This document shows positions 2,321 to 10,634 of a stretch of DNA of 42,229 nt, one piece after another. This stretch comes from a virus (taxonomy: Duplodnaviria; Heunggongvirae; Uroviricota; Caudoviricetes): IMG/VR virus record IMGVR_UViG_2718217897_000004; one strand, 5' to 3'. The translations under genes were made by a program, and so were the position numbers. The notes under the pieces are model-generated. The model had not been told where the DNA came from and ran no database searches. It saw nothing but the letters and a program-made list of their open reading frames with translations. Numbering within the stretch: position 1 is the stretch's first letter; each line of letters starts with the position of its first letter.

Positions 2321-4747
2321 TTAAAAATCAGCCTGACTCGGGATCAGTTTTTGCCAGATAGCTGAAACGTATTTTGCCTGGTAACGAGCGTCATCAAGTG
2401 CATTATGGCGCTCACCTTCGAATGGGATAGCAGTTCTGGCATCGAAGTCTATGGCTTTCCCCAGCTCAACGATTGTGCGTACATCGCGATCGTTGCAGTA
2501 GCGCCACGGGCAGGGGATACCCTGTCGTTCGTATGAACGGCGTAAAATCACGTTGTCGAAGTTGGCCCCATTACCCCAGACCTGAACAAAAAATTCACCG
2601 GAGTTTTCGTCGATAAATTCCCGCAATTGCAGTAGTGCATCATCTAACGGGATTTCATCGGTCATAATGGCAGACTGCGCCTCACGTGATTGCTTCAGCC
2701 ACCATTTAATGACGTCACGATCAATGACTCCGCCAGCAGTATCCAGATCGATGGTCTTGCTAAATTCCGGTCCCATATCTCCGGTTTGTGGATCGAAAAA
2801 TATTGCGCCTATTGAGATAATCGGGGCATCGGGATTTTTTCCCATGGTTTCAAGGTCGATCATCAGATGAATCCCCGCTCTGCTGGTGGATGTGAGTTTA
2901 TGATGACCATTCACCTTAATTAAGGGATCTGTCGCCTCGCCAGTTTTATTATCGCTGGCGTGATGCTGATTGCCGCCAGGGTTCTCCTTGTGTGGATGTT
3001 CAGCGCCTTCCATTTCCTCCGGAACATTTTCCTGAACTTCAACCTGATTCTCTTCATCGAATGTTTCCTGGTATGTTGCGTCGCCCATCACCGCGCCACA
3101 ATCAGGGCAGTTGCCGCCACCCCTCTGACCGCAGGCGGTGCAGACTTTTTCCGGTTCCTGTTGCGCTACTGGTTCGGATTGTTTCGTTTCTGGCTCGTTT
3201 TGTAACGCATTTGGGCTGTTTTGTTCCGCTTTTTGGTCGTTCCGTTCCGATTCATGCTGGTTCTGGTTCACAGAATCGCGAGTCTGGATCCCCTTGACCC
3301 ATTTCGGATCATTAGGGTCGCTAATCCCCTCAACAAATTCACCACGCGATACAGCAAGTAACTTATCGGCGTCAGGCTGGCTGATATTGGCTGCCTGCAT
3401 AATTTTGTTTACTTCGTCAGCGGTGACTTTTACTTGGTTAGCGGAACTCACCTGCGACTGAACGTTCTGGCAATGTTCAGTTGTATCCGGTTCCATTGTT
3501 TCAGTTGTTGCCTGTTCACCTGCCATTGCGTCAGATGGTTGTGGTTTTTCTTCCTCTGTTTCACGTTCAGTAACCACCTCGCGGTTAATTTCTTCCAGGA
3601 TATCTTTTTCCGGCGTATGCCGGGCAGCTGTGAGAGTTTCCTTGCTGGGGTTCTCGTGATCAGTTTCCGTCAAATAGGCGTTGATATACCCCTGAAGGCG
3701 TCCCGGGTAGTGATAAAATTCAGGGTGTGCGCTTCGGATAAGTGCAAAAATAGCGGCGCGGGAATAGTCCAGAATACCCGGGGTTGCACGAAGTGCTGCG
3801 GACCATTCTTTGAACGGACTTTCTTTTTTCAGGACTACTTCTTTTGCGCGACGATAAACGCTGCCCGGAATTTCATAAATATTAAAATCCATCGGAAGTG
3901 TGGCTGCTGCAATCTCCACATCCAGTGTGTCGAGGGTGTGTACTAAATTCGGATTGCGATCGGTTTTGTTCCCACCGCCAGCATTAGCACCGGAAGCCGT
4001 GCGGGTGATGCGTGAAACACGATTTCCTTTCATCCACTCTTTTGTCAGCAGACCCCGATCAATGTAGTCAGCGTCCAGGTATGCTTCGAAAAAAGCAGTT
4101 ATTAGTCCCAGGTCTGAATTACCAGGATTAGGGAAAACTTTGTCAGTGTCACGAACCAGTTTGTGGAGGTCGCGAATCTCCAGCGAGTCGAGCAGACTGG
4201 TTTTATGCGAAATAGCCAGAGCAGTAACAGCCGGTAGTTCTTCAGCCCGTGCAATGTGTAATGCCTGGAGTTCGTCGCGTGAAACGTGCGTTACTGGTTT
4301 TTCGCTGCCGTGTTGAGCAAGCCAACGAATGGGCAGTTCCTGACCGGAGACAGGCAGAAGCATGCTCTCCTCAATCTCAGTCATGTCTTCGCCGTTGATG
4401 TTGGTATTGTCAGTGCTGGCTGGTTTGTCCTGAACAGAGGGGGAAGGGCCGATAAATGTCATTGTGATGCCATCTTTCCCGCCTTTTTCATAGCGGTTGC
4501 AGAATTCAGTATCAAACACGCCTTCTGGCGGAAGGTCGTCAACAACGGGCAAATTGACGCGGACGGGTTTTTTAAAGTCGTCTTCATCATAATCGTTGTC
4601 ATCCATTGCGGTAATGCAGCGGGAGATTGCAACAGATAATTTTTTTGCTGTAGTCCAGTAAAAACCACCTTTAATTCCCAGGCGTTTTCTTACTTTGTCA
4701 TTTTTTGCTTCGCAATATAGTGCAAATTCTTCTTTATCAGTGCTCAT
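2321..4747 (-). CDS. Phage exonuclease: large N-terminal region with Cys4 zinc ribbon fused to a C-terminal DnaQ-like (DEDDh) 3'-5' exonuclease domain (of the kind annotated exodeoxyribonuclease VIII in prophages)
   Basis: 808-aa ORF; C-terminal MIDLETMG...WGNGANFDN...HNALDDARY motifs fit exonuclease motifs I-III; CTACGQRGGGNCPDCG zinc ribbon mid-protein; occupies the exo/recombination slot of the leftward operon. Confidence 0.75.
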   Translation of the reverse strand: MSTDKEEFALYCEAKNDKVRKRLGIKGGFYWTTAKKLSVAISRCITAMDDNDYDEDDFKKPVRVNLPVVDDLPPEGVFDTEFCNRYEKGGKDGITMTFIGPSPSVQDKPASTDNTNINGEDMTEIEESMLLPVSGQELPIRWLAQHGSEKPVTHVSRDELQALHIARAEELPAVTALAISHKTSLLDSLEIRDLHKLVRDTDKVFPNPGNSDLGLITAFFEAYLDADYIDRGLLTKEWMKGNRVSRITRTASGANAGGGNKTDRNPNLVHTLDTLDVEIAAATLPMDFNIYEIPGSVYRRAKEVVLKKESPFKEWSAALRATPGILDYSRAAIFALIRSAHPEFYHYPGRLQGYINAYLTETDHENPSKETLTAARHTPEKDILEEINREVVTERETEEEKPQPSDAMAGEQATTETMEPDTTEHCQNVQSQVSSANQVKVTADEVNKIMQAANISQPDADKLLAVSRGEFVEGISDPNDPKWVKGIQTRDSVNQNQHESERNDQKAEQNSPNALQNEPETKQSEPVAQQEPEKVCTACGQRGGGNCPDCGAVMGDATYQETFDEENQVEVQENVPEEMEGAEHPHKENPGGNQHHASDNKTGEATDPLIKVNGHHKLTSTSRAGIHLMIDLETMGKNPDAPIISIGAIFFDPQTGDMGPEFSKTIDLDTAGGVIDRDVIKWWLKQSREAQSAIMTDEIPLDDALLQLREFIDENSGEFFVQVWGNGANFDNVILRRSYERQGIPCPWRYCNDRDVRTIVELGKAIDFDARTAIPFEGERHNALDDARYQAKYVSAIWQKLIPSQADF

Positions 4748-6601: not shown

Positions 6602-7009
6602 TTATCTTTTGTTTGTTCGTTGACGGGCTTTTAATAACTCTTCAAAGAGTTTGTTGAAATTTTTTACTCGGGCGCGCATCTCGGTGAGCTGAGCATCCTG
6701 TTCTGATTCAGGCAGTGCATTAAAAAGCTCAAGGAGCTCATGTTCTTTGGGGGATAGAGCAACTGGCTCCTCAATAGGTGGTGATGGCTGCTTGTCTTCA
6801 TCGCCAAATAGAATCCATGTTGGCGAGCACTGCAGTACTTTGCTGAGGGCAAAAAGATTCTTTCCTGTAGGTTCGCTATCATCCCGCTCCCATTGTGAAA
6901 CTGATACGTGAGAAATTTTCAGGGCTTTAGCAAGAGACCTTTGGGTGTATTTGAGGTTTTTTCGGCGATATCTAATGCGTTCGCCAATGGTTAAATTTTT
7001 TGTATCCAT
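6602..7009 (-). CDS. dicA: Repressor DicA (CI-type HTH repressor of the immunity region)
   Basis: 135-aa protein MDTKNLTIGERIRYRRKNLKYTQRSLAKALKISHVSVSQWER... matches recalled DicA in length and sequence. Confidence 0.9.
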   Translation of the reverse strand: MDTKNLTIGERIRYRRKNLKYTQRSLAKALKISHVSVSQWERDDSEPTGKNLFALSKVLQCSPTWILFGDEDKQPSPPIEEPVALSPKEHELLELFNALPESEQDAQLTEMRARVKNFNKLFEELLKARQRTNKR

Positions 7010-7092: not shown

Positions 7093-7323
7093 ATGCTTAA
7101 AACTGACGCACTTTTGTATTTCGGTTCAAAAACAAAACTTGCACAAGCTGCTGGTATTCGTTTGGCTTCGCTTTATAGCTGGAAAGGGGAGCTAGTACCT
7201 GAAGGTCGCGCGATGCGCCTGCAAGAGGCATCCGGCGGGGAACTTCAGTACGACCCCAAAGTTTATGACGAATATCGTAAGGCAAAGCGGGCGGGGCGGT
7301 TGAACAATGAAAATCACCCCTGA
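7093..7323 (+). CDS. dicC: DicC (Cro-like regulator), divergent from dicA
   Basis: 76-aa protein MLKTDALLYFGSKTKLAQAAGIRLASLYSWKG... matches recalled DicC in length and sequence. Confidence 0.85.
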   Translation: MLKTDALLYFGSKTKLAQAAGIRLASLYSWKGELVPEGRAMRLQEASGGELQYDPKVYDEYRKAKRAGRLNNENHP

Positions 7324-7858
7324 ACAGGTTTGTGAGGCTCTGGATGCCTGGGTGTGCCGACCAGGAATGACACAGGAGCAGGCGACGATATTAATCACGG
7401 AAGCATTCTGGGCTCTGAAAGAACGCCCGAACATCGATGTTCAACGCGTCACGTTTAATGATGGCGAGGTTGATCAACGGGCGCTGGGCGTTAACCGGGT
7501 GAAGATATTCGAACGCTGGAAAGCTATCGACACCAGGGATAAGCGGGAAAAATTCACGGCGCTGATTCCGGCAATTATGGAGGCTATCCGGATCAGCGAT
7601 TTCAGGTTGTATTGTGAAATTACTGACGGAAAAAGCATTACGTACATGATCGCCGGGTTAAACAAAGAATATGGCGATGTGGTGGAGTCCGGGCTGCTTT
7701 TTGCGGATCCATCTGTTGTGGAACGTGAGACTGACGAGCTTATAGAAAAAGCTATTGCTTTCAAGCATGCGTATCGTCAGCAATATCAATATTACTTTGC
7801 AGATAAACAAATGTCTGCCAGGGGTTCGTATGAGTATCGATGCACTACGATGGGCTAA
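7307..7858 (+). CDS. YdaT-like early protein (proposed CII-analogue family)
   Basis: 183-aa ORF directly after the Cro-like gene; segment REKFTALIPAIMEAI resembles the recalled YdaT segment; position equals lambda cII. Confidence 0.45.
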   Translation: MKITPEQVCEALDAWVCRPGMTQEQATILITEAFWALKERPNIDVQRVTFNDGEVDQRALGVNRVKIFERWKAIDTRDKREKFTALIPAIMEAIRISDFRLYCEITDGKSITYMIAGLNKEYGDVVESGLLFADPSVVERETDELIEKAIAFKHAYRQQYQYYFADKQMSARGSYEYRCTTMG

Positions 7859-8870
7859 AAAGGTGAAAACCGGCAGTTCATCCAGTAAGTCTGTATTGAC
7901 CTGGCTTGCTGATATGTGCGGTGCCGATTTGTGTGCATACCCGTCTGTATCTGCACTGGCAGAAGTAACGGAACTGAACAAAAAGACTGTGCAGGACAGC
8001 TTACGACACCTGATGGAGATTGGGTTAATTGTTGATACCGGTGAGAGAAAAGGCAGAACAAAGCAAATTGTGGTGTACCGACTTATCGGTGTAGATGAAA
8101 GTGTTGCCGAGCCTGAATACACCCAAAAACGGGAGTCTTTAAAGGTGGGTAAAATTGGTGCTGTTAATAAAAACAGTACCGAAAATGGTTATGTTTCAGC
8201 ACAAAACAGACCCAAAAACGGAACTCTTAGCTGCATGGAAAATAACCAAAGACACCCAAATTTTCCATCAAAGACACCCAAAAACGGATCACGGAACCCA
8301 AAGGAACCCAAAGATCTAAACCCCACACATAACGCACGCGAGAATGCCCCGACCAGTGAGCAGGAAGTTTTGTCGTTACAGGCAGCACCCCTTGTATTCC
8401 TGGATGGCCTGAGCGAACCCATCGGAAAATTTCCGATGACCGATAGCTGGTATCCGTCACGGGATTTTCGACGACGGGCTGCGTTGTGGGGGATGGCTTT
8501 GCCGGAGACAGAATTTACACCTGCTGAACTTGCCGTCTTCCGGGACTACTGGGCAGCGGAGGGGAAAGTGTTTACGCAGATTCAGTGGGAGCAGAAATTC
8601 GCCCGTCACGTAAATCACGTCAGGGCGCAGGTTAAACCAGTCAGCAAGGGGGTAAACCATGCAGCAGCACCAGGTGGCACCGCATCACGGGCAGTTCAGG
8701 AAATTCGGGCAGCACGTGAGCAGTGGGAACGTGAAAACGGATTTATCAGCGACGGAAACGGCCTGGAAGCTGTGGGAACTCATGGGGGAGGTTTATTCGA
8801 ACCGCTGGACCCAGAAGAACGGGGCCGCACCTTCGAAGCTCTGGATTGCACAGATTGGCGCGATGACTGA
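7830..8870 (+). CDS. Replication initiation protein (N-terminal winged HTH, C-terminal DnaT-like domain)
   Basis: Start ATG 7830 with AGGGG SD; N-terminus MSIDALRWAKKVKTGSSSSKSVLTWLADMCG... typical of prophage replication proteins; C-terminal DSWYPSRDFRRRAALWGMALPETEFTPAEL...DYWAAEGKVFTQIQWEQKF resembles DnaT-like domain. Confidence 0.7.
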   Translation: MSIDALRWAKKVKTGSSSSKSVLTWLADMCGADLCAYPSVSALAEVTELNKKTVQDSLRHLMEIGLIVDTGERKGRTKQIVVYRLIGVDESVAEPEYTQKRESLKVGKIGAVNKNSTENGYVSAQNRPKNGTLSCMENNQRHPNFPSKTPKNGSRNPKEPKDLNPTHNARENAPTSEQEVLSLQAAPLVFLDGLSEPIGKFPMTDSWYPSRDFRRRAALWGMALPETEFTPAELAVFRDYWAAEGKVFTQIQWEQKFARHVNHVRAQVKPVSKGVNHAAAPGGTASRAVQEIRAAREQWERENGFISDGNGLEAVGTHGGGLFEPLDPEERGRTFEALDCTDWRDD

Positions 8871-9324
8871 GCAGCAAATCCGGCAGGTCTGCCGCGAGTG
8901 CATGGACCGCTGCCGGGCGGGTGAAACATGGCCTCCGGACCTGGCTGAGTTTGTGGCGCTGATTTCGGAAAGCGGGGCCAATCCATTTGGTCTGACGGTG
9001 GATGCTGTGATGGAGGAGTACCGCCGCTGGCGCAATGAGTCCTGGCGATACGACGGAAGTGATAAGTACCCGTGGTCTCAGCCTGTGCTGTATCACATTT
9101 GCCTCGAGATGCGTTCAAAGGGGATTGAACGCCAGATGACCGAAGGGGAATTAAAACGGCTTGCAGAACGGCAGCTGACGAAATGGGCAAAGCATGTTAG
9201 TAACGGCCTGAGCGTTCCGCCAGTACGGCGACAACTGGCGGCACCAAAACGCCCGTTGGGACCAACGCCAATTGAGTTGCTGAAACAGGAATATGAACGC
9301 CGGAAAGCGGCTGGGTTTGTTTGA
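8659..9324 (+). CDS. Second replication-module protein (P-position); start may be ATG 8659 or ATG 8863
   Basis: 221-aa frame with strong AAGGGGG SD before ATG 8659 but 212-nt overlap with the upstream gene; alternative ATG 8863 gives ATGACTGA stop/start coupling. No Walker A motif seen. Confidence 0.5.
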   Translation: MQQHQVAPHHGQFRKFGQHVSSGNVKTDLSATETAWKLWELMGEVYSNRWTQKNGAAPSKLWIAQIGAMTEQQIRQVCRECMDRCRAGETWPPDLAEFVALISESGANPFGLTVDAVMEEYRRWRNESWRYDGSDKYPWSQPVLYHICLEMRSKGIERQMTEGELKRLAERQLTKWAKHVSNGLSVPPVRRQLAAPKRPLGPTPIELLKQEYERRKAAGFV

Positions 9325-9356
9325 GTTGAGAAGTAATTTTTACCGGGAGGAAATTT

Positions 9357-10127
9357 ATGGAGACTGTTTTTGACGCACTGAAAGCAATGGGAAAAGCCAC
9401 GTCGGTAGAACTGGCTACGCGACTTGATATCAGTCGTGAAGAAGTGCTGAACGAGCTGTGGGAACTCAAAAGAAATGGCGTCGTTGATAAAACTGGTCAC
9501 ACCTGGTTTCTGGCTGGCGAAGGTGAATCCCGGGTAACCGAAGAGCGGCCAGTAAAATCTGAAGCACAGGATATGCTGACCGGGGAGGTCGAACAAAAAG
9601 TTACCGCAGACATGATGATTGAGTTTATCGGTCAGGAGGGGGCTAAAACGTGTGAGGAACTGGCGGGTAAGTTCGGTGTCAGTACTCGCAAGGTTGCTTC
9701 CACGCTGGCGGTGGTAACCGCAACGGGGCGGCTGGCACGCGTTAATCAGAACGGTAAATTTCGTTACTGCATGCCGGGCGATAAGTTACCAGCAGAGCCG
9801 AAATCCGTGCCGGTAACGGAAAATGATGGTAAGGCCTTTCCTCAGCCAGCAGGTGTTGCGTTACCAGTACAGGAAGCGGCAACACAGGAAGATATTAAAA
9901 CAGAAACTGTGGCGGACATTGTGCAGTCGCTGCCATCGTTTACTGCAACGCGAGCTGATGATTTGATTTTGCCATCGCTGCATTTGGCAAACCGCGAACT
10001 GCGTCGGGCGAAAAATCATGTCCAGAAGTGGGAGCGTGTCTGCGCCGCGCTGCGGGAGCTGAACAGGCACCGGGATATTGTCCGACAGATTGTCGATTCT
10101 TCCCGCCACGTTGCACCGGAAAAGTGA
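9357..10127 (+). CDS. Hypothetical phage protein with N-terminal winged-helix-like region (recalled as a DUF1627-type prophage protein)
   Basis: 256-aa ORF with GGGAGG SD; N-terminal ...ELATRLDISREEVLNELWELKRNGVV... HTH-like. Confidence 0.6.
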   Translation: METVFDALKAMGKATSVELATRLDISREEVLNELWELKRNGVVDKTGHTWFLAGEGESRVTEERPVKSEAQDMLTGEVEQKVTADMMIEFIGQEGAKTCEELAGKFGVSTRKVASTLAVVTATGRLARVNQNGKFRYCMPGDKLPAEPKSVPVTENDGKAFPQPAGVALPVQEAATQEDIKTETVADIVQSLPSFTATRADDLILPSLHLANRELRRAKNHVQKWERVCAALRELNRHRDIVRQIVDSSRHVAPEK

Positions 10128-10142
10128 TTGTCGGAGGTGATT

Positions 10143-10634
10143 ATGGCAAGAGTATTTACACAGGAAGAACGGGAAGAAGTGAAGGCGCGCATTGTGGAAC
10201 TGGTACGCAGAGATGGGCGGAAAACGCGTAAACAACTGGAAAATGAAACCGGGGCGACAAGACATCTGATAGAAGTTCTGACGAAAGAGCTGGTAGCCAG
10301 TGGTGTTGTATATGGCTCAGGGTATGGAATATTCCCTTCAGCGCAGGCACGTAAGGACTGGATAAAAGCCATCGAAAAGATGTCGAAAGCAAAGTTAAAG
10401 AAACTGGCTGTGGTTGATCCTGACCTTATCTGGTCATTACCAGACGGAGAAATACGCCGCTACGACAGGCGTCAAAACATAATCTGTAGCGAGTGCCGGA
10501 AGAGCGAAGTTATGCAGCGCGTGCTGGCGTTTTATCAAGGAGGTGGTGCTGTGAGTGAAATTAGCTATCAGGCTTCAATTGCCGCTGGCATTTGCATCAA
10601 AGGAGAGGAGCATGGAAATAAAACCAGAAGATGA
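10143..10634 (+). CDS. Hypothetical phage early protein
   Basis: 163-aa frame from ATG 10143 with GGAGG SD; N-terminal charged helix-rich region. Confidence 0.55.
   Translation: MARVFTQEEREEVKARIVELVRRDGRKTRKQLENETGATRHLIEVLTKELVASGVVYGSGYGIFPSAQARKDWIKAIEKMSKAKLKKLAVVDPDLIWSLPDGEIRRYDRRQNIICSECRKSEVMQRVLAFYQGGGAVSEISYQASIAAGICIKGEEHGNKTRR

What the first reader, a model, noticed from the sequence alone, without database searches (positions are those of the whole stretch)
8659..8870. 212-nt overlap between the two replication genes, and no recognisable helicase loader
The initiator-like ORF runs to 8870, yet a strong SD and ATG open the next frame at 8659. Either the two overlap extensively, the second gene really starts at ATG 8863 (ATGACTGA coupling), or a frameshift joins them. 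Neither protein shows a Walker A motif, so no DnaC- or P-type loader ATPase is evident.
Basis: seen in the sequence. Interest (0 to 1): 0.4.

Follow-up and report, generated by a model that had tools for sequence, protein, structure and literature searches.

The report
Initiator and helicase-loader genes truly overlap
In this E. coli prophage the replication initiator gene and the lambda-P-type helicase-loader gene share 212 bases read in two frames, an arrangement kept from enterobacteria to Vibrio phages, so the loader is present but is annotated too short in public genomes.

Summary
The sequence facts hold. The initiator ORF (7830-8870) and a second ORF with a strong Shine-Dalgarno site and ATG at 8659 (to 9324) overlap by 212 nt in different frames, and neither protein has a Walker A motif.

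The claim that no loader is recognisable is wrong. The second protein belongs to the lambda P family (PF06992, 61 bits), and these loaders are not ATPases.

- 20 loci from genomes of other species plus two Vibrio phages keep a 149-224 nt overlap, with an SD-preceded ATG at its 5' edge.
- ATG 8863, the RefSeq start, is not conserved and would delete two predicted helices.
- The overlap contains no slippery heptamer. The fused proteins in databases are scattered indels or deletions.

Selection is split. The 5' half keeps the initiator frame (a tail helix lying over the loader's disordered N-terminus). The 3' half keeps the loader frame (its first helices lying over the initiator's disordered acidic tail). 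Among 41 E. coli haplotypes, polymorphism in the overlap is under half that of the flanks (p=4.5e-6).

The overlap travels with the loader's N-terminal module behind at least four unrelated initiator types.

Verdict: a new variant of the lambda O/P module, of moderate interest. Translation of the long form has not been shown experimentally.

The parts
7830..8870 (+). Replication initiator gene (346 aa). It consists of an N-terminal HTH, a linker carrying the iterons, a DnaT-like domain and a 70-aa C-terminal tail.
   Evidence: ORF. PF17948 DnaT at residues 201-267 (59 bits) and a weak HTH_36 hit. phrog_1032/3992 'replication initiation / primosomal protein' matched to the last residue. E. coli DnaT structures 6aep and 9zbt matched at E=1e-18 to 1e-19. 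RefSeq annotates the same coordinates.
8116..8312 (.). Iteron-like direct repeats inside the initiator linker: ACMCCCAAAAACGG x3 and CAAAGACACCCAAA x3. This is the probable origin of replication.
   Evidence: the repeat finder families D1-D3. The position is analogous to the ori iterons inside lambda O and phi80 gene 15. Function is inferred, not tested.
8646..8653 (+). Shine-Dalgarno site (AAGGGGGT) for the loader gene, lying inside the initiator ORF.
   Evidence: Pairing energy is -11.8 kcal/mol. An equivalent SD (GGAGG, GGGAGG or GAGG) at <= -6 kcal/mol occurs in 15 of 18 homologous loci, against 12% of background positions.
8659..9324 (+). Lambda-P-family helicase loader gene, long form (221 aa). 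This is the proposed true coding sequence.
   Evidence: PF06992 at 61 bits, and phrog_109 aligned from residue 19. Homologues of 212-223 aa at 49-79% identity cover the whole query. The ATG and SD are conserved.
8659..8769 (+). Overlap part A. In the initiator frame it encodes the tail linker and helix (ASRAVQEIRAAREQWERE, nt 8682-8735). In the loader frame it encodes the disordered N-terminus (residues 1-37).
   Evidence: Codon-phase divergence follows the initiator frame (0.43/0.33/0.52). Mean amino-acid identity in the core of part A (loader residues 10-26) is 0.41 in the initiator frame, 0.26 in the loader frame and 0.22 in the third frame. AlphaFold2 predicts a helix at initiator residues 285-302 and pLDDT below 50 for loader residues 1-29.
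8770..8870 (+). Overlap part B. In the loader frame it encodes the first helices of the compact domain (AWKLWELMGEVYSNRWTQKNG...LWIAQIG). In the initiator frame it encodes a disordered acidic tail ending LDCTDWRDD and then the stop.
   Evidence: Codon-phase divergence follows the loader frame (0.31/0.25/0.51). Amino-acid identity is 0.60 in the loader frame, 0.37 in the initiator frame and 0.41 in the third frame. The initiator frame nevertheless stays open, with p about 0.25 per locus under synonymous resampling. AlphaFold2 predicts loader helices at 29-54 and 60-67 and pLDDT below 50 for initiator residues about 306-346.
8782..8784 (+). Internal ATG (Met42), used as the start in some database entries of 177-181 aa.
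   Evidence: SD pairing is only -4.2 kcal/mol. The conserved motif AWxLWE lies upstream of it. The residue is Leu in L023 and in Vibrio phage D75.
8863..8870 (+). ATGACTGA: ATG 8863 (Met69, the RefSeq/PGAP start of the 153-aa form) overlapping the initiator stop TGA 8868-8870.
   Evidence: Annotation. SD pairing is -3.1 kcal/mol. The motif is absent in L017, L021-L023, L025, L026, L029 and L030. Met69 is Leu in several distant homologues and Phe in one.

Best explanation
The window carries a lambda-type initiator-loader pair whose junction is a real dual-coding stretch of 212 nt. This is not an error, a frameshift site or a mis-called ORF.

How it is read (inferred from the comparative evidence):
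- Ribosomes translating the initiator read frame 0 through to TGA 8870.
- Other ribosomes start independently at the SD-preceded ATG 8659, inside the initiator ORF, in the +1 frame. They make a 221-aa lambda-P-family helicase loader.

The two frames divide the stretch.
- In 8659-8769 the initiator frame is the constrained one. It encodes a short linker and an 18-residue helix. The loader frame there encodes only a disordered N-terminal arm, equivalent to lambda P domain I.
- In 8770-8870 the loader frame is the constrained one. It encodes the first helices of its compact domain, equivalent to the start of lambda P domain II. The initiator frame there encodes a disordered acidic tail.

What is shown and what is inferred:
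- Shown: the ORFs, family membership, conservation of the overlap, of the start signals and of both open frames, the partition of constraint, and the reduced polymorphism.
- Inferred: that ATG 8659 is the start used in vivo; that the initiator tail helix is the element that docks the loader (by analogy with the lambda O C-terminus binding the N-terminal part of P); and that placing the loader's ribosome-binding site inside the initiator ORF ties loader synthesis to initiator synthesis.
For: Family:
- PF06992 at 61 bits, phrog_109 aligned over residues 19-220, and the lambda P chain 8v9t.

Conservation of the arrangement:
- 20 loci from genomes of other species (Escherichia albertii, Salmonella, Klebsiella, Enterobacter, Citrobacter, Pectobacterium, Serratia, Buttiauxella and others), like the window itself, have the first ATG of the loader frame 149-224 nt upstream of the initiator stop, most often 212-215 nt.
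- Vibrio phages D75 and D173 have overlaps of 212 and about 200 nt at 31% loader identity.
- Five further E. coli and phage records keep the ATG, the SD and the open frame.

Start signal:
- Median SD pairing is -9.75 kcal/mol, against a background mean of -2.7.

Open frames:
- The third frame carries 86 stops.
- The initiator frame stays open over the overlap with p about 0.04 per locus given the loader protein, and about 0.25 for the 3' half alone.
- The loader frame stays open with p about 0.29 given the initiator protein.

Selection:
- Codon-phase and amino-acid identity patterns are split between the two halves.
- Among 41 haplotypes of near-identical E. coli prophages, segregating-site density is 0.117 and 0.122 in the two halves of the overlap, against 0.266 in each flank (Fisher p=4.5e-6).
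- Third positions of the locally dominant frame vary at 14 of 70 sites, against 114 of 238 in the flanks (p=2.8e-5).
- Ten single-base changes would stop the initiator silently for the loader, and five would do the reverse. None has stopped either frame in any intact homologue examined here.

Structure:
- The loader has pLDDT below 50 for residues 1-29 and helices at 29-54 and 60-67.
- The initiator tail has a helix at 285-302 followed by a disordered stretch.
- This matches the lambda P domain plan: I = 1-29 (a lasso, disordered in solution), II = about 30-119 (PMC12661323).

Other elements:
- No RNA structure, Rfam family, promoter or terminator explains the constraint.
Against: - There is no direct evidence of translation from ATG 8659 (no Ribo-seq or proteomics).
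- RefSeq/PGAP annotates the 153-aa form, and other entries use Met42.
- At deep divergence the loader's first 37 residues are no better conserved than the non-coding third frame (0.26 against 0.22, measured over residues 10-26). The initiator's last 33 residues are likewise no better than the third frame (0.37 against 0.41). In each half, therefore, one product looks like a passenger that is only kept free of stops.
- Synonymous divergence of the loader in the 3' half is only about 9% below expectation (0.536 against 0.586).
- The per-locus openness probabilities are modest, and the loci are not phylogenetically independent.
- L030 ends its initiator about 20 codons early (149-nt overlap). A stand-alone Erwinia homologue (L028) has only about 10 residues before the conserved core. 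Three loci have weak SD sites: one of the 16 enterobacterial loci tested (L025) and both Vibrio phages.
- The population comparison could be inflated by mosaic recombination bringing divergent alleles into the flanks.
Confidence: 0.8

Rival explanations
1. The loader really starts downstream, at ATG 8863 (coupled to the initiator stop through ATGACTGA, as RefSeq annotates) or at ATG 8782. The upstream part of the 221-aa ORF is then untranslated, and the true overlap is only 8 or 89 nt.
For: PGAP calls the 153-aa form in RefSeq genomes, and Rac-SA53 is annotated likewise. Many database entries of 177-181 aa start at Met42. ATGA-type coupling is the arrangement in lambda and phi80. The first 37 loader residues show no amino-acid conservation above the third-frame control. 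The chance of the loader frame being open upstream is not small, about 0.29 per locus.
Against: Residues 38-68 are among the best conserved in the family (W50, K53, N54, G55, W62) and show a loader-frame codon signature. They form predicted helices 29-54 and 60-67, so a start at Met69 removes them. Pfam and PHROG profiles align upstream of Met69. Met69 and the ATGA motif are absent in distant homologues. Met42 is Leu in L023 and in phage D75, and conserved residues lie upstream of it. SD pairing is -3.1 and -4.2 kcal/mol for these two starts, against -11.8 for 8659. The SD plus ATG at the 5' edge is conserved across genera. Polymorphism in 8659-8769 is halved relative to initiator-only sequence.
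Confidence: 0.1
2. Two loader isoforms are made: the full-length form from 8659, and a short form by termination-reinitiation at ATGACTGA (8863). The short form would lack the initiator-side module. This is an add-on to the main model, not a replacement.
For: GATGACTGA or GATGAGTGA is kept in 11 of the 16 non-redundant loci (the window and the loci closer to it). The stop and the ATG are 5 nt apart, a geometry known to allow reinitiation (established knowledge).
Against: The motif is missing in the more distant half of the family. In the loader frame ATG simply encodes Met69, and the TGA follows from the Thr-Glu codons, so its conservation in close relatives may be passive. There is no SD. A 153-aa product would begin in the middle of a folded domain.
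Confidence: 0.1
3. A programmed +1 (or -2) ribosomal frameshift near the boundary at about 8770 joins the initiator to the loader. The resulting fusion protein would read exactly the constrained half of each frame.
For: The partition of constraint (initiator frame 5', loader frame 3') is what such a fusion would predict. phrog_15931, a 482-position profile, matches both proteins. Fused proteins exist in databases: P0108, P0180 and P0081.
Against: The overlap has no X XXY YYZ heptamer; a specific +1 shift motif was not searched for. The region around the boundary varies in length and sequence between homologues. Each fusion joins the genes at a different place: P0108 comes from an indel-ridden long-read assembly in which the initiator is itself broken, P0081 and P0175 are internal deletions, and P0180 and L027 shift elsewhere. 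A fusion-only model does not explain the conserved SD and ATG at 8659, or why both frames stay open beyond the boundary.
Confidence: 0.03
4. The overlap is an artefact: a sequencing error or a decaying pseudogene pair in a defective prophage.
For: Single defective copies do exist, such as the Leclercia L027 frameshift and the P0167 and P0168 variants.
Against: A match to the module was found in 2130 of 5426 complete E. coli genomes, 906 of them covering at least 80% of it. The same arrangement, with the same frames, was checked in 11 sequenced PPompW/Stx2a phage records, in 20 loci from other species and in Vibrio phages.
Confidence: 0.01

Closest known systems
Bacteriophage lambda O / P (initiator / DnaB loader) and phi80 gp15 / gp14
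   Same: The gene order (cro, cII-like, initiator, loader) is the same, and iterons lie inside the initiator gene. The loader is a PF06992 member without NTPase motifs. Its C-terminal 129 residues are 49% identical to phi80 gp14. By published genetics, the initiator C-terminal region and the loader N-terminal part are the mutually specific surfaces (PMC6022878). The loader domain plan (disordered N-arm, then helical domains) matches the cryo-EM description of lambda P (PMC12661323).
   Different: Lambda and phi80 overlap by only 4 nt (ATGA), whereas here the genes share 212 nt in two frames. The initiator body is HTH plus a DnaT-like domain, not Phage_rep_O. The first 92 loader residues find no counterpart in phi80 gp14 by BLAST and align with lambda P only weakly (20% identity over the whole protein).
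E. coli DnaT (primosomal protein I, replication restart)
   Same: Initiator residues 194-270 match the DnaT C-terminal ssDNA-binding domain, E=1e-18 to 1e-19 against solved structures; PF17948.
   Different: Only this domain is shared. The NCBIfam DnaT equivalog scores 92 bits against a cut-off of 201. The N-terminal HTH, the iteron-bearing linker and the 70-aa tail are absent from DnaT. The protein sits in a phage replication module.
Rac prophage ydaU / ydaV module of E. coli K-12
   Same: The flanks are the same (DicA/DicC/YdaT-like regulators upstream, DUF1627 downstream), and there is a YdaU-type initiator.
   Different: In K-12 the loader position holds YdaV, annotated as an 'ATP-binding protein' in RefSeq and as 'DNA replication protein DnaC-like protein' in a related phage record. 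Here and in Rac-SA53 it holds a lambda-P-type loader overlapping the initiator. The two loader types are alternative cassettes, and similarity to K-12 resumes at the very end of the loader gene (window about 9323).
Same-strand out-of-frame overlapping phage gene pairs, e.g. lambda Rz/Rz1 spanin genes (from general knowledge, not tested here)
   Same: Two proteins that work together are encoded by one stretch of DNA in two frames. Ordered segments of one frame lie over disordered or unconstrained segments of the other, as is often reported for overlapping viral genes.
   Different: Rz1 is wholly embedded in Rz. Here the overlap is terminal (the 3' end of one gene and the 5' end of the next) and lies in a replication module. 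I found no description of it in five full-text searches.

Membership tests
Lambda P helicase-loader family (Pfam PF06992) | Significant match to the family profile above the curated cut-off | tested here: met
   61 bits against a gathering score of 26, residues 56-188. phrog_109 'P-like helicase loader' at 212 bits, residues 19-220. Lambda P chain 8v9t at E=2.8e-4.
Lambda P helicase-loader family (Pfam PF06992) | No NTP-binding motif (the loader is not an AAA+ ATPase) | tested here: met
   No Walker A or B pattern. Lambda P is unrelated to AAA+ DnaC (PMC6391071).
Lambda P helicase-loader family (Pfam PF06992) | Gene placed directly after the origin-binding initiator gene in the early-right operon | tested here: met
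   Order is Cro-like, YdaT/CII-like, initiator, loader. Same order as lambda and phi80.
Lambda P helicase-loader family (Pfam PF06992) | Domain plan: disordered N-terminal arm, two helical domains, C-terminal arm | tested here: inconclusive
   In the AlphaFold2 model, residues 1-29 have pLDDT below 50, helices span 29-181, and there is a C-terminal helix at 204-217. Mean pLDDT is only 69 and pTM 0.45. No fold search was run.
Lambda P helicase-loader family (Pfam PF06992) | Binds and opens host DnaB; released by DnaK/DnaJ/GrpE | not testable with these tools
   A biochemical property.
DnaC / DnaI AAA+ helicase loaders | AAA+ domain with Walker A and B motifs | tested here: not met
   No motif in either protein. 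No AAA+/IstB-type Pfam hit.
Lambda O initiator family (Pfam PF04492 Phage_rep_O) | Match to the Phage_rep_O N-terminal DNA-binding domain | tested here: not met
   No PF04492 hit for the window's initiator at E<=0.01. It has HTH_36 (20.8 bits, below the cut-off of 25) and DnaT. A relative with the same tail (L021) does carry Phage_rep_O. The window's protein therefore works like O without being a member.
Iteron-binding phage initiator ('replisome organizer') with internal origin | Direct repeats (iterons) within its own gene | tested here: met
   Three copies of a 24-nt repeat and three of a 14-nt repeat at 8116-8312. Binding was not tested.
Genuine dual-coding (overlapping) gene pair | Both frames open across the overlap in diverged homologues, with the third frame closed | tested here: met
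   0, 0 and 86 stops in the loader, initiator and third frames over 21 loci. The first two are zero by construction, because the overlap was delimited by those ORFs. Resampling probabilities are 0.04, 0.25 and 0.29 per locus.
Genuine dual-coding (overlapping) gene pair | Reduced variability at sites synonymous in one frame | tested here: met
   Population data: 14 of 70 against 114 of 238 third-position sites vary (p=2.8e-5). Overall site density is 0.12 against 0.27 (p=4.5e-6). At deep divergence the effect is small (0.536 against 0.586).
Genuine dual-coding (overlapping) gene pair | Independent translation start signal for the downstream gene | tested here: met
   Conserved ATG preceded by an SD, median -9.75 kcal/mol. 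Use in vivo was not tested.
Programmed ribosomal frameshift genes (dnaX, phage tail G/GT type) | Conserved slippery site at the frame junction | tested here: not met
   No X XXY YYZ heptamer in 8641-8880. The boundary region varies in length and sequence. Database fusions join at different places.

The most novel reading that the evidence does not exclude
The loader gene carries, in the -1 frame of its own first 210 nt or so, a portable C-terminal tail for whichever initiator gene lies upstream. The tail helix (ASRAVQxIRAAREQWE) would be the element that docks the loader's N-terminal module. Under this reading the two halves of the initiator-loader interface are written on the same DNA and cannot be separated by the mosaic recombination that shuffles lambdoid replication genes.

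What the evidence does show is the co-travel. The same tail and loader N-module follow at least four unrelated initiator bodies: HTH_36+DnaT, Phage_rep_O, DUF1376, and HTH_36/DnaD_N with a lambda-O-like C-domain. They also precede two unrelated loader C-terminal halves, one like phi80 gp14 and one of a Vibrio-phage type. Similarity between the different initiators begins at the loader's SD.

The docking itself is untested.
Probability: 0.3. Interest if true: 0.65.

Novelty: new variant of a known kind. Interest (0 to 1): 0.42.

Why it matters
1. Annotation. RefSeq names the loader correctly but starts it at Met69. That drops 68 residues, including two conserved helices and the arm equivalent to lambda P domain I. 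A match to this module was found in 2130 of 5426 complete E. coli genomes. Vibrio phage records make similar truncations. Surveys that ask which phages have a helicase loader, or that model loader-DnaB complexes, will use a clipped protein.

2. Biology. Same-strand overlaps of more than 200 nt that are conserved across orders of bacteria are uncommon in tailed phages. Here the overlap sits at the junction that classical lambda genetics identifies as the initiator-loader specificity interface. If the shared DNA encodes both sides of that interface, it would explain how mosaic phages swap origin-binding domains and host-helicase-binding domains freely without breaking initiator-loader recognition.

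3. Method. Paired alignments of these two proteins will show spurious co-variation, because the residues share nucleotides. Complex prediction from co-evolution must allow for this.

Tried and rejected
- Frameshift fusion. I looked for slippery heptamers (none) and inspected the fused database proteins. P0108 comes from a noisy Canu contig whose initiator is also broken. P0081 and P0175 are deletions, and P0180 and L027 are single indels at other positions. I could not explain why phrog_15931 matches both proteins over overlapping profile positions. It is probably a mixed family.
- RNA or DNA element as the cause of the constraint. Folding of 8610-8720 and 8640-8890 gives z = +0.07 and +1.43. 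Rfam gave only a chance-level hit elsewhere. There is no promoter or terminator consensus.
- NCBIfam. There is no model for the loader, so the short PGAP start does not come from a curated profile.
- Predicting an initiator-tail/loader complex as one linked chain. I prepared the sequences but abandoned the idea.
- The IMG/VR scan for more diverse relatives returned only copies 97-99% identical. I reused them for the polymorphism test instead.
- Literature. Five full-text searches found no description of this overlap. The Stx-phage replication-region paper PMC8044961 deals with other module types.
- The resemblance between the initiator's terminal LDCTDW and the lambda O / phi80 gp15 termini (LDLTNTDW, LDFNNTDW). 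In the window this motif is largely dictated by the loader's conserved LW-IAQ-IG codons, so homology cannot be claimed.
Full report
**1. What is in the sequence**

The window around the finding is the early-right operon of an E. coli lambdoid prophage. It is 98% identical to the PPompW / Stx2a phage records and 99.9% identical to E. coli strain 2D.

The genes run as follows:
- a DicA-like repressor (6602-7009, minus strand);
- a Cro/DicC-like gene (7093-7323);
- a YdaT/CII-like gene (7307-7858);
- an initiator (7830-8870);
- an ORF at 8659-9324;
- DUF1627 (9357-10127);
- DUF977 (10128-10634).

The initiator ORF ends at TGA 8868-8870. The next ORF opens at ATG 8659, in the frame shifted by +1, and is preceded by AAGGGGGT at 8646-8653. 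The shared stretch is 212 nt, and ATGACTGA lies at 8863-8870. Neither protein has a Walker A motif.

**2. What the two proteins are**

The initiator has a weak N-terminal helix-turn-helix (HTH), then a linker whose DNA carries iteron-like repeats (8116-8312). Next comes a domain closely similar to the ssDNA-binding domain of E. coli DnaT: PF17948 at 59 bits, and solved DnaT structures at E=1e-18 to 1e-19. A 70-residue tail follows.

The second protein is a member of the lambda P family. It scores 61 bits on PF06992 against a cut-off of 26. phrog_109 'P-like helicase loader' aligns over residues 19-220, and it matches the solved lambda P chain.

Lambda P is unrelated to the AAA+ loader DnaC and works without an ATPase domain (PMC6391071). 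The missing Walker A is what the family predicts. The statement that no loader is recognisable does not stand.

**3. Where the loader starts**

Databases hold at least four versions:
- 221 aa, from ATG 8659;
- 177-181 aa, from Met42 at 8782;
- 153 aa, from Met69 at 8863, which is the RefSeq/PGAP call;
- 140 aa, from 8902.

Several results favour 8659.
- Homologues at 49-79% identity from Klebsiella, Enterobacter, Salmonella, Symbiopectobacterium and others are 212-223 aa long and cover the whole query. Residues 38-68 (AWxLWExMGEIYSNRWTxKNGxxPSxLWIAQIG) are among the most conserved in the protein.
- AlphaFold2 places helices at 29-54 and 60-67. A start at Met69 deletes both, and a start at Met42 halves the first. 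Residues 1-29 are predicted to be disordered. This mirrors lambda P, whose domain I (1-29) is a flexible arm and whose domain II starts at about residue 30 (PMC12661323).
- Met69 and the ATGA motif are absent from the more distant homologues. Met42 is Leu in two of them.
- SD pairing is -11.8 kcal/mol for 8659, against -4.2 and -3.1 for the two internal ATGs. An SD of comparable strength precedes the equivalent ATG in 15 of 18 loci, with a median of -9.75 against a background mean of -2.7.

**4. The overlap is conserved**

In 20 loci from genomes of other species, as in the window itself, the first ATG of the loader frame lies 149-224 nt upstream of the initiator stop, most often 212-215 nt. 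Five further E. coli and phage records with diverged sequence keep the same ATG, SD and open frame.

Two Vibrio phages, whose loader N-terminal halves are only 31% identical to this one, have overlaps of 212 and about 200 nt with their O-like initiators. In one of them the annotated start is again truncated. Lambda and phi80 themselves overlap by only 4 nt.

The third forward frame carries 86 stops over the same stretch in 21 loci. I resampled synonymous codons to ask how often each frame would stay open by chance:
- the initiator frame given the loader protein, over the whole overlap: about 0.04 per locus;
- the initiator frame given the loader protein, 3' half only: about 0.25 per locus;
- the loader frame given the initiator protein: about 0.29 per locus.

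Each value is modest, but both frames are open in every intact locus. In the window, ten single-base changes would stop the initiator without altering the loader, and five would do the reverse. None has stopped either frame in any intact homologue examined here.

**5. Which frame is conserved**

The constraint is split between the two halves.

In 8659-8769, pairwise divergence by codon position follows the initiator frame: 0.43/0.33/0.52, against 0.32/0.31/0.55 in the initiator-only DnaT domain. Mean amino-acid identity, measured over the core of this half (loader residues 10-26), is 0.41 in the initiator frame, 0.26 in the loader frame and 0.22 in the third frame.

In 8770-8867, divergence follows the loader frame: 0.31/0.25/0.51, against 0.31/0.25/0.60 in loader-only sequence. 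Identity is 0.60 for the loader, 0.37 for the initiator and 0.41 for the third frame.

At deep divergence, then, each half has one constrained product and one product that is merely kept open. The loader's synonymous divergence in the 3' half is only about 9% below expectation.

At short range the second constraint becomes visible. Among 41 haplotypes of near-identical E. coli prophages, segregating-site density is:
- 0.266 in initiator-only sequence;
- 0.117 and 0.122 in the two halves of the overlap;
- 0.266 in loader-only sequence (Fisher p=4.5e-6).

Third positions of the locally dominant frame vary at 14 of 70 sites, against 114 of 238 in the flanks (p=2.8e-5). RNA folding, Rfam and promoter/terminator scans offer no other explanation for this constraint.

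**6. Anatomy of the shared stretch**

AlphaFold2 models the initiator's C-terminal part as a confident DnaT domain, a linker, one helix at residues 285-302 (ASRAVQEIRAAREQWERE, nt 8682-8735) and then a disordered, Gly/Asp/Glu-rich end.

Set against the loader model, the ordered element of each protein lies over a disordered element of the other. The initiator helix lies over the loader's flexible arm. The loader's first helices (nt 8743-8859) lie over the initiator's acidic tail.

**7. Rivals**

A programmed frameshift would read exactly the two constrained halves, so I took it seriously. The case against it is as follows.
- There is no slippery heptamer.
- The boundary region varies in length and sequence.
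- The fused database proteins join at different points, and are explained by a noisy assembly, deletions or single indels.
- A fusion-only model explains neither the conserved SD and ATG nor the open frames beyond the boundary.

A downstream start is the main rival (section 3). A second, short isoform made by reinitiation at ATGACTGA cannot be excluded for the close relatives. A sequencing error is excluded by the number of independent genomes.

**8. A travelling cassette**

The initiators upstream of this loader type are not all related. They include HTH_36+DnaT (the window), Phage_rep_O (L021), DUF1376 (L023, L003, L024) and HTH_36/DnaD_N with a lambda-O/phi80-gp15-like C-domain (L022, L030), among others. 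Yet all end in the same tail, and their similarity begins at about the loader's SD.

On the loader side, BLAST finds similarity to phi80 gp14 only over residues 93-221 (49% identity), while the Vibrio phage proteins share only residues 1-132.

The unit that stays together is therefore [initiator tail / loader N-module]. Lambda genetics places initiator-loader specificity in the C-terminal region of O and the N-terminal part of P (PMC6022878). It is a reasonable inference, not a result, that the tail helix docks the loader and that the overlap keeps the two matched surfaces on one piece of DNA.

**9. Comparison, novelty, verdict**

Functionally this is a lambda O/P-type initiator-loader pair. 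The loader is a family member. The initiator works like O but is not a Phage_rep_O member.

What differs from the known systems is the conserved junction of about 210 nt read in two frames. I found no description of it in five full-text searches. RefSeq's gene models hide it by starting the loader at Met69.

I rate it a new variant of a known kind, of moderate interest. The main practical consequence is a systematic N-terminal truncation of the loader in public annotation.

**Caveats**
- There are no expression data.
- The loci are not phylogenetically independent.
- The polymorphism contrast could be partly shaped by recombination.
- Both structure models have only moderate confidence (mean pLDDT 67-69).

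Noticed in passing
window 8116-8312: Iteron-like direct repeats sit inside the initiator's linker-coding region: AAYASACCCAAAAACGG at 8116, 8205 and 8271, and CAAAGACACCCAAA at 8247, 8269 and 8299. This is probably the prophage origin, placed as in lambda O and phi80 gene 15.
   Followed up: partly
window 8630-8666: A 17-nt direct repeat is spaced 20 nt apart: GGTTAAACCAGTCAGCA and GGGTAAACCATGCAGCA. The second copy contains the end of the loader's SD and its ATG. It could be a trace of a small duplication, or chance.
   Followed up: no
window 8863 (RefSeq WP_230278494-type models); L032 1834 vs 1501; L004 2203: Public annotations start this loader at three different downstream ATGs: 153 aa in PGAP, 140 aa in the LC5678xx phage records, and a 108-aa fragment in Vibrio phage D75. 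All of them cut into the conserved N-module.
   Followed up: yes
window 9323-9400 vs E. coli K-12 Rac (NZ_CP025268 1427535-1427614): Similarity to K-12 Rac resumes exactly at the end of the loader gene. In K-12 the preceding gene is ydaV, annotated as an ATP-binding protein and, in a related phage record, as DnaC-like. P-type and DnaC-type loaders are therefore alternative cassettes between the same flanks.
   Followed up: partly
window 8845-8867; L006 (lambda O end), L034 (phi80 gp15 end): The initiator ends ...LDCTDWRDD, while lambda O ends ...LDLTNTDWIYGVDL and phi80 gp15 ends ...LDFNNTDWAYGVIR. The resemblance may be chance, because in the window the motif is largely fixed by the loader's conserved LW-IAQ-IG codons. 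A published table (PMC6022878) lists the lambda amber mutation Oam205 five codons from the O terminus.
   Followed up: partly
L027 (Leclercia adecarboxylata NCTC13032) about 3100-3190; P0180, P0175, P0081, P0108/L031: Individual copies carry single indels or deletions that fuse or break the two genes at different places. These are decaying prophages or assembly errors. They are the likely source of the 482-position 'fusion' family phrog_15931, which matches both proteins.
   Followed up: partly
window 7830-7858 and 7307-7323: There are two further, smaller same-strand overlaps in the operon. The YdaT/CII-like gene and the initiator overlap by 29 nt. The Cro/DicC-like gene and the YdaT-like gene overlap by 17 nt.
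   Followed up: no
L028 (Erwinia sp. MMLR14_017) about 2974-3543: A stand-alone loader homologue has only about 10 residues before the conserved WxLW core. No initiator ORF overlaps it, and the upstream region is AT-rich and stop-filled. It may be a remnant or a domesticated copy.
   Followed up: no
L032 / L033 (Vibrio phages D75, D173): The Vibrio phage proteins share only the N-module (residues 1-132) with this loader, and their C-terminal halves have no Pfam match. They may correspond to the viral relatives of the VdhL loaders described in PMC11087808. That paper notes about 30% identity to some PF06992 proteins and a position next to lambda-O-like genes.
   Followed up: no
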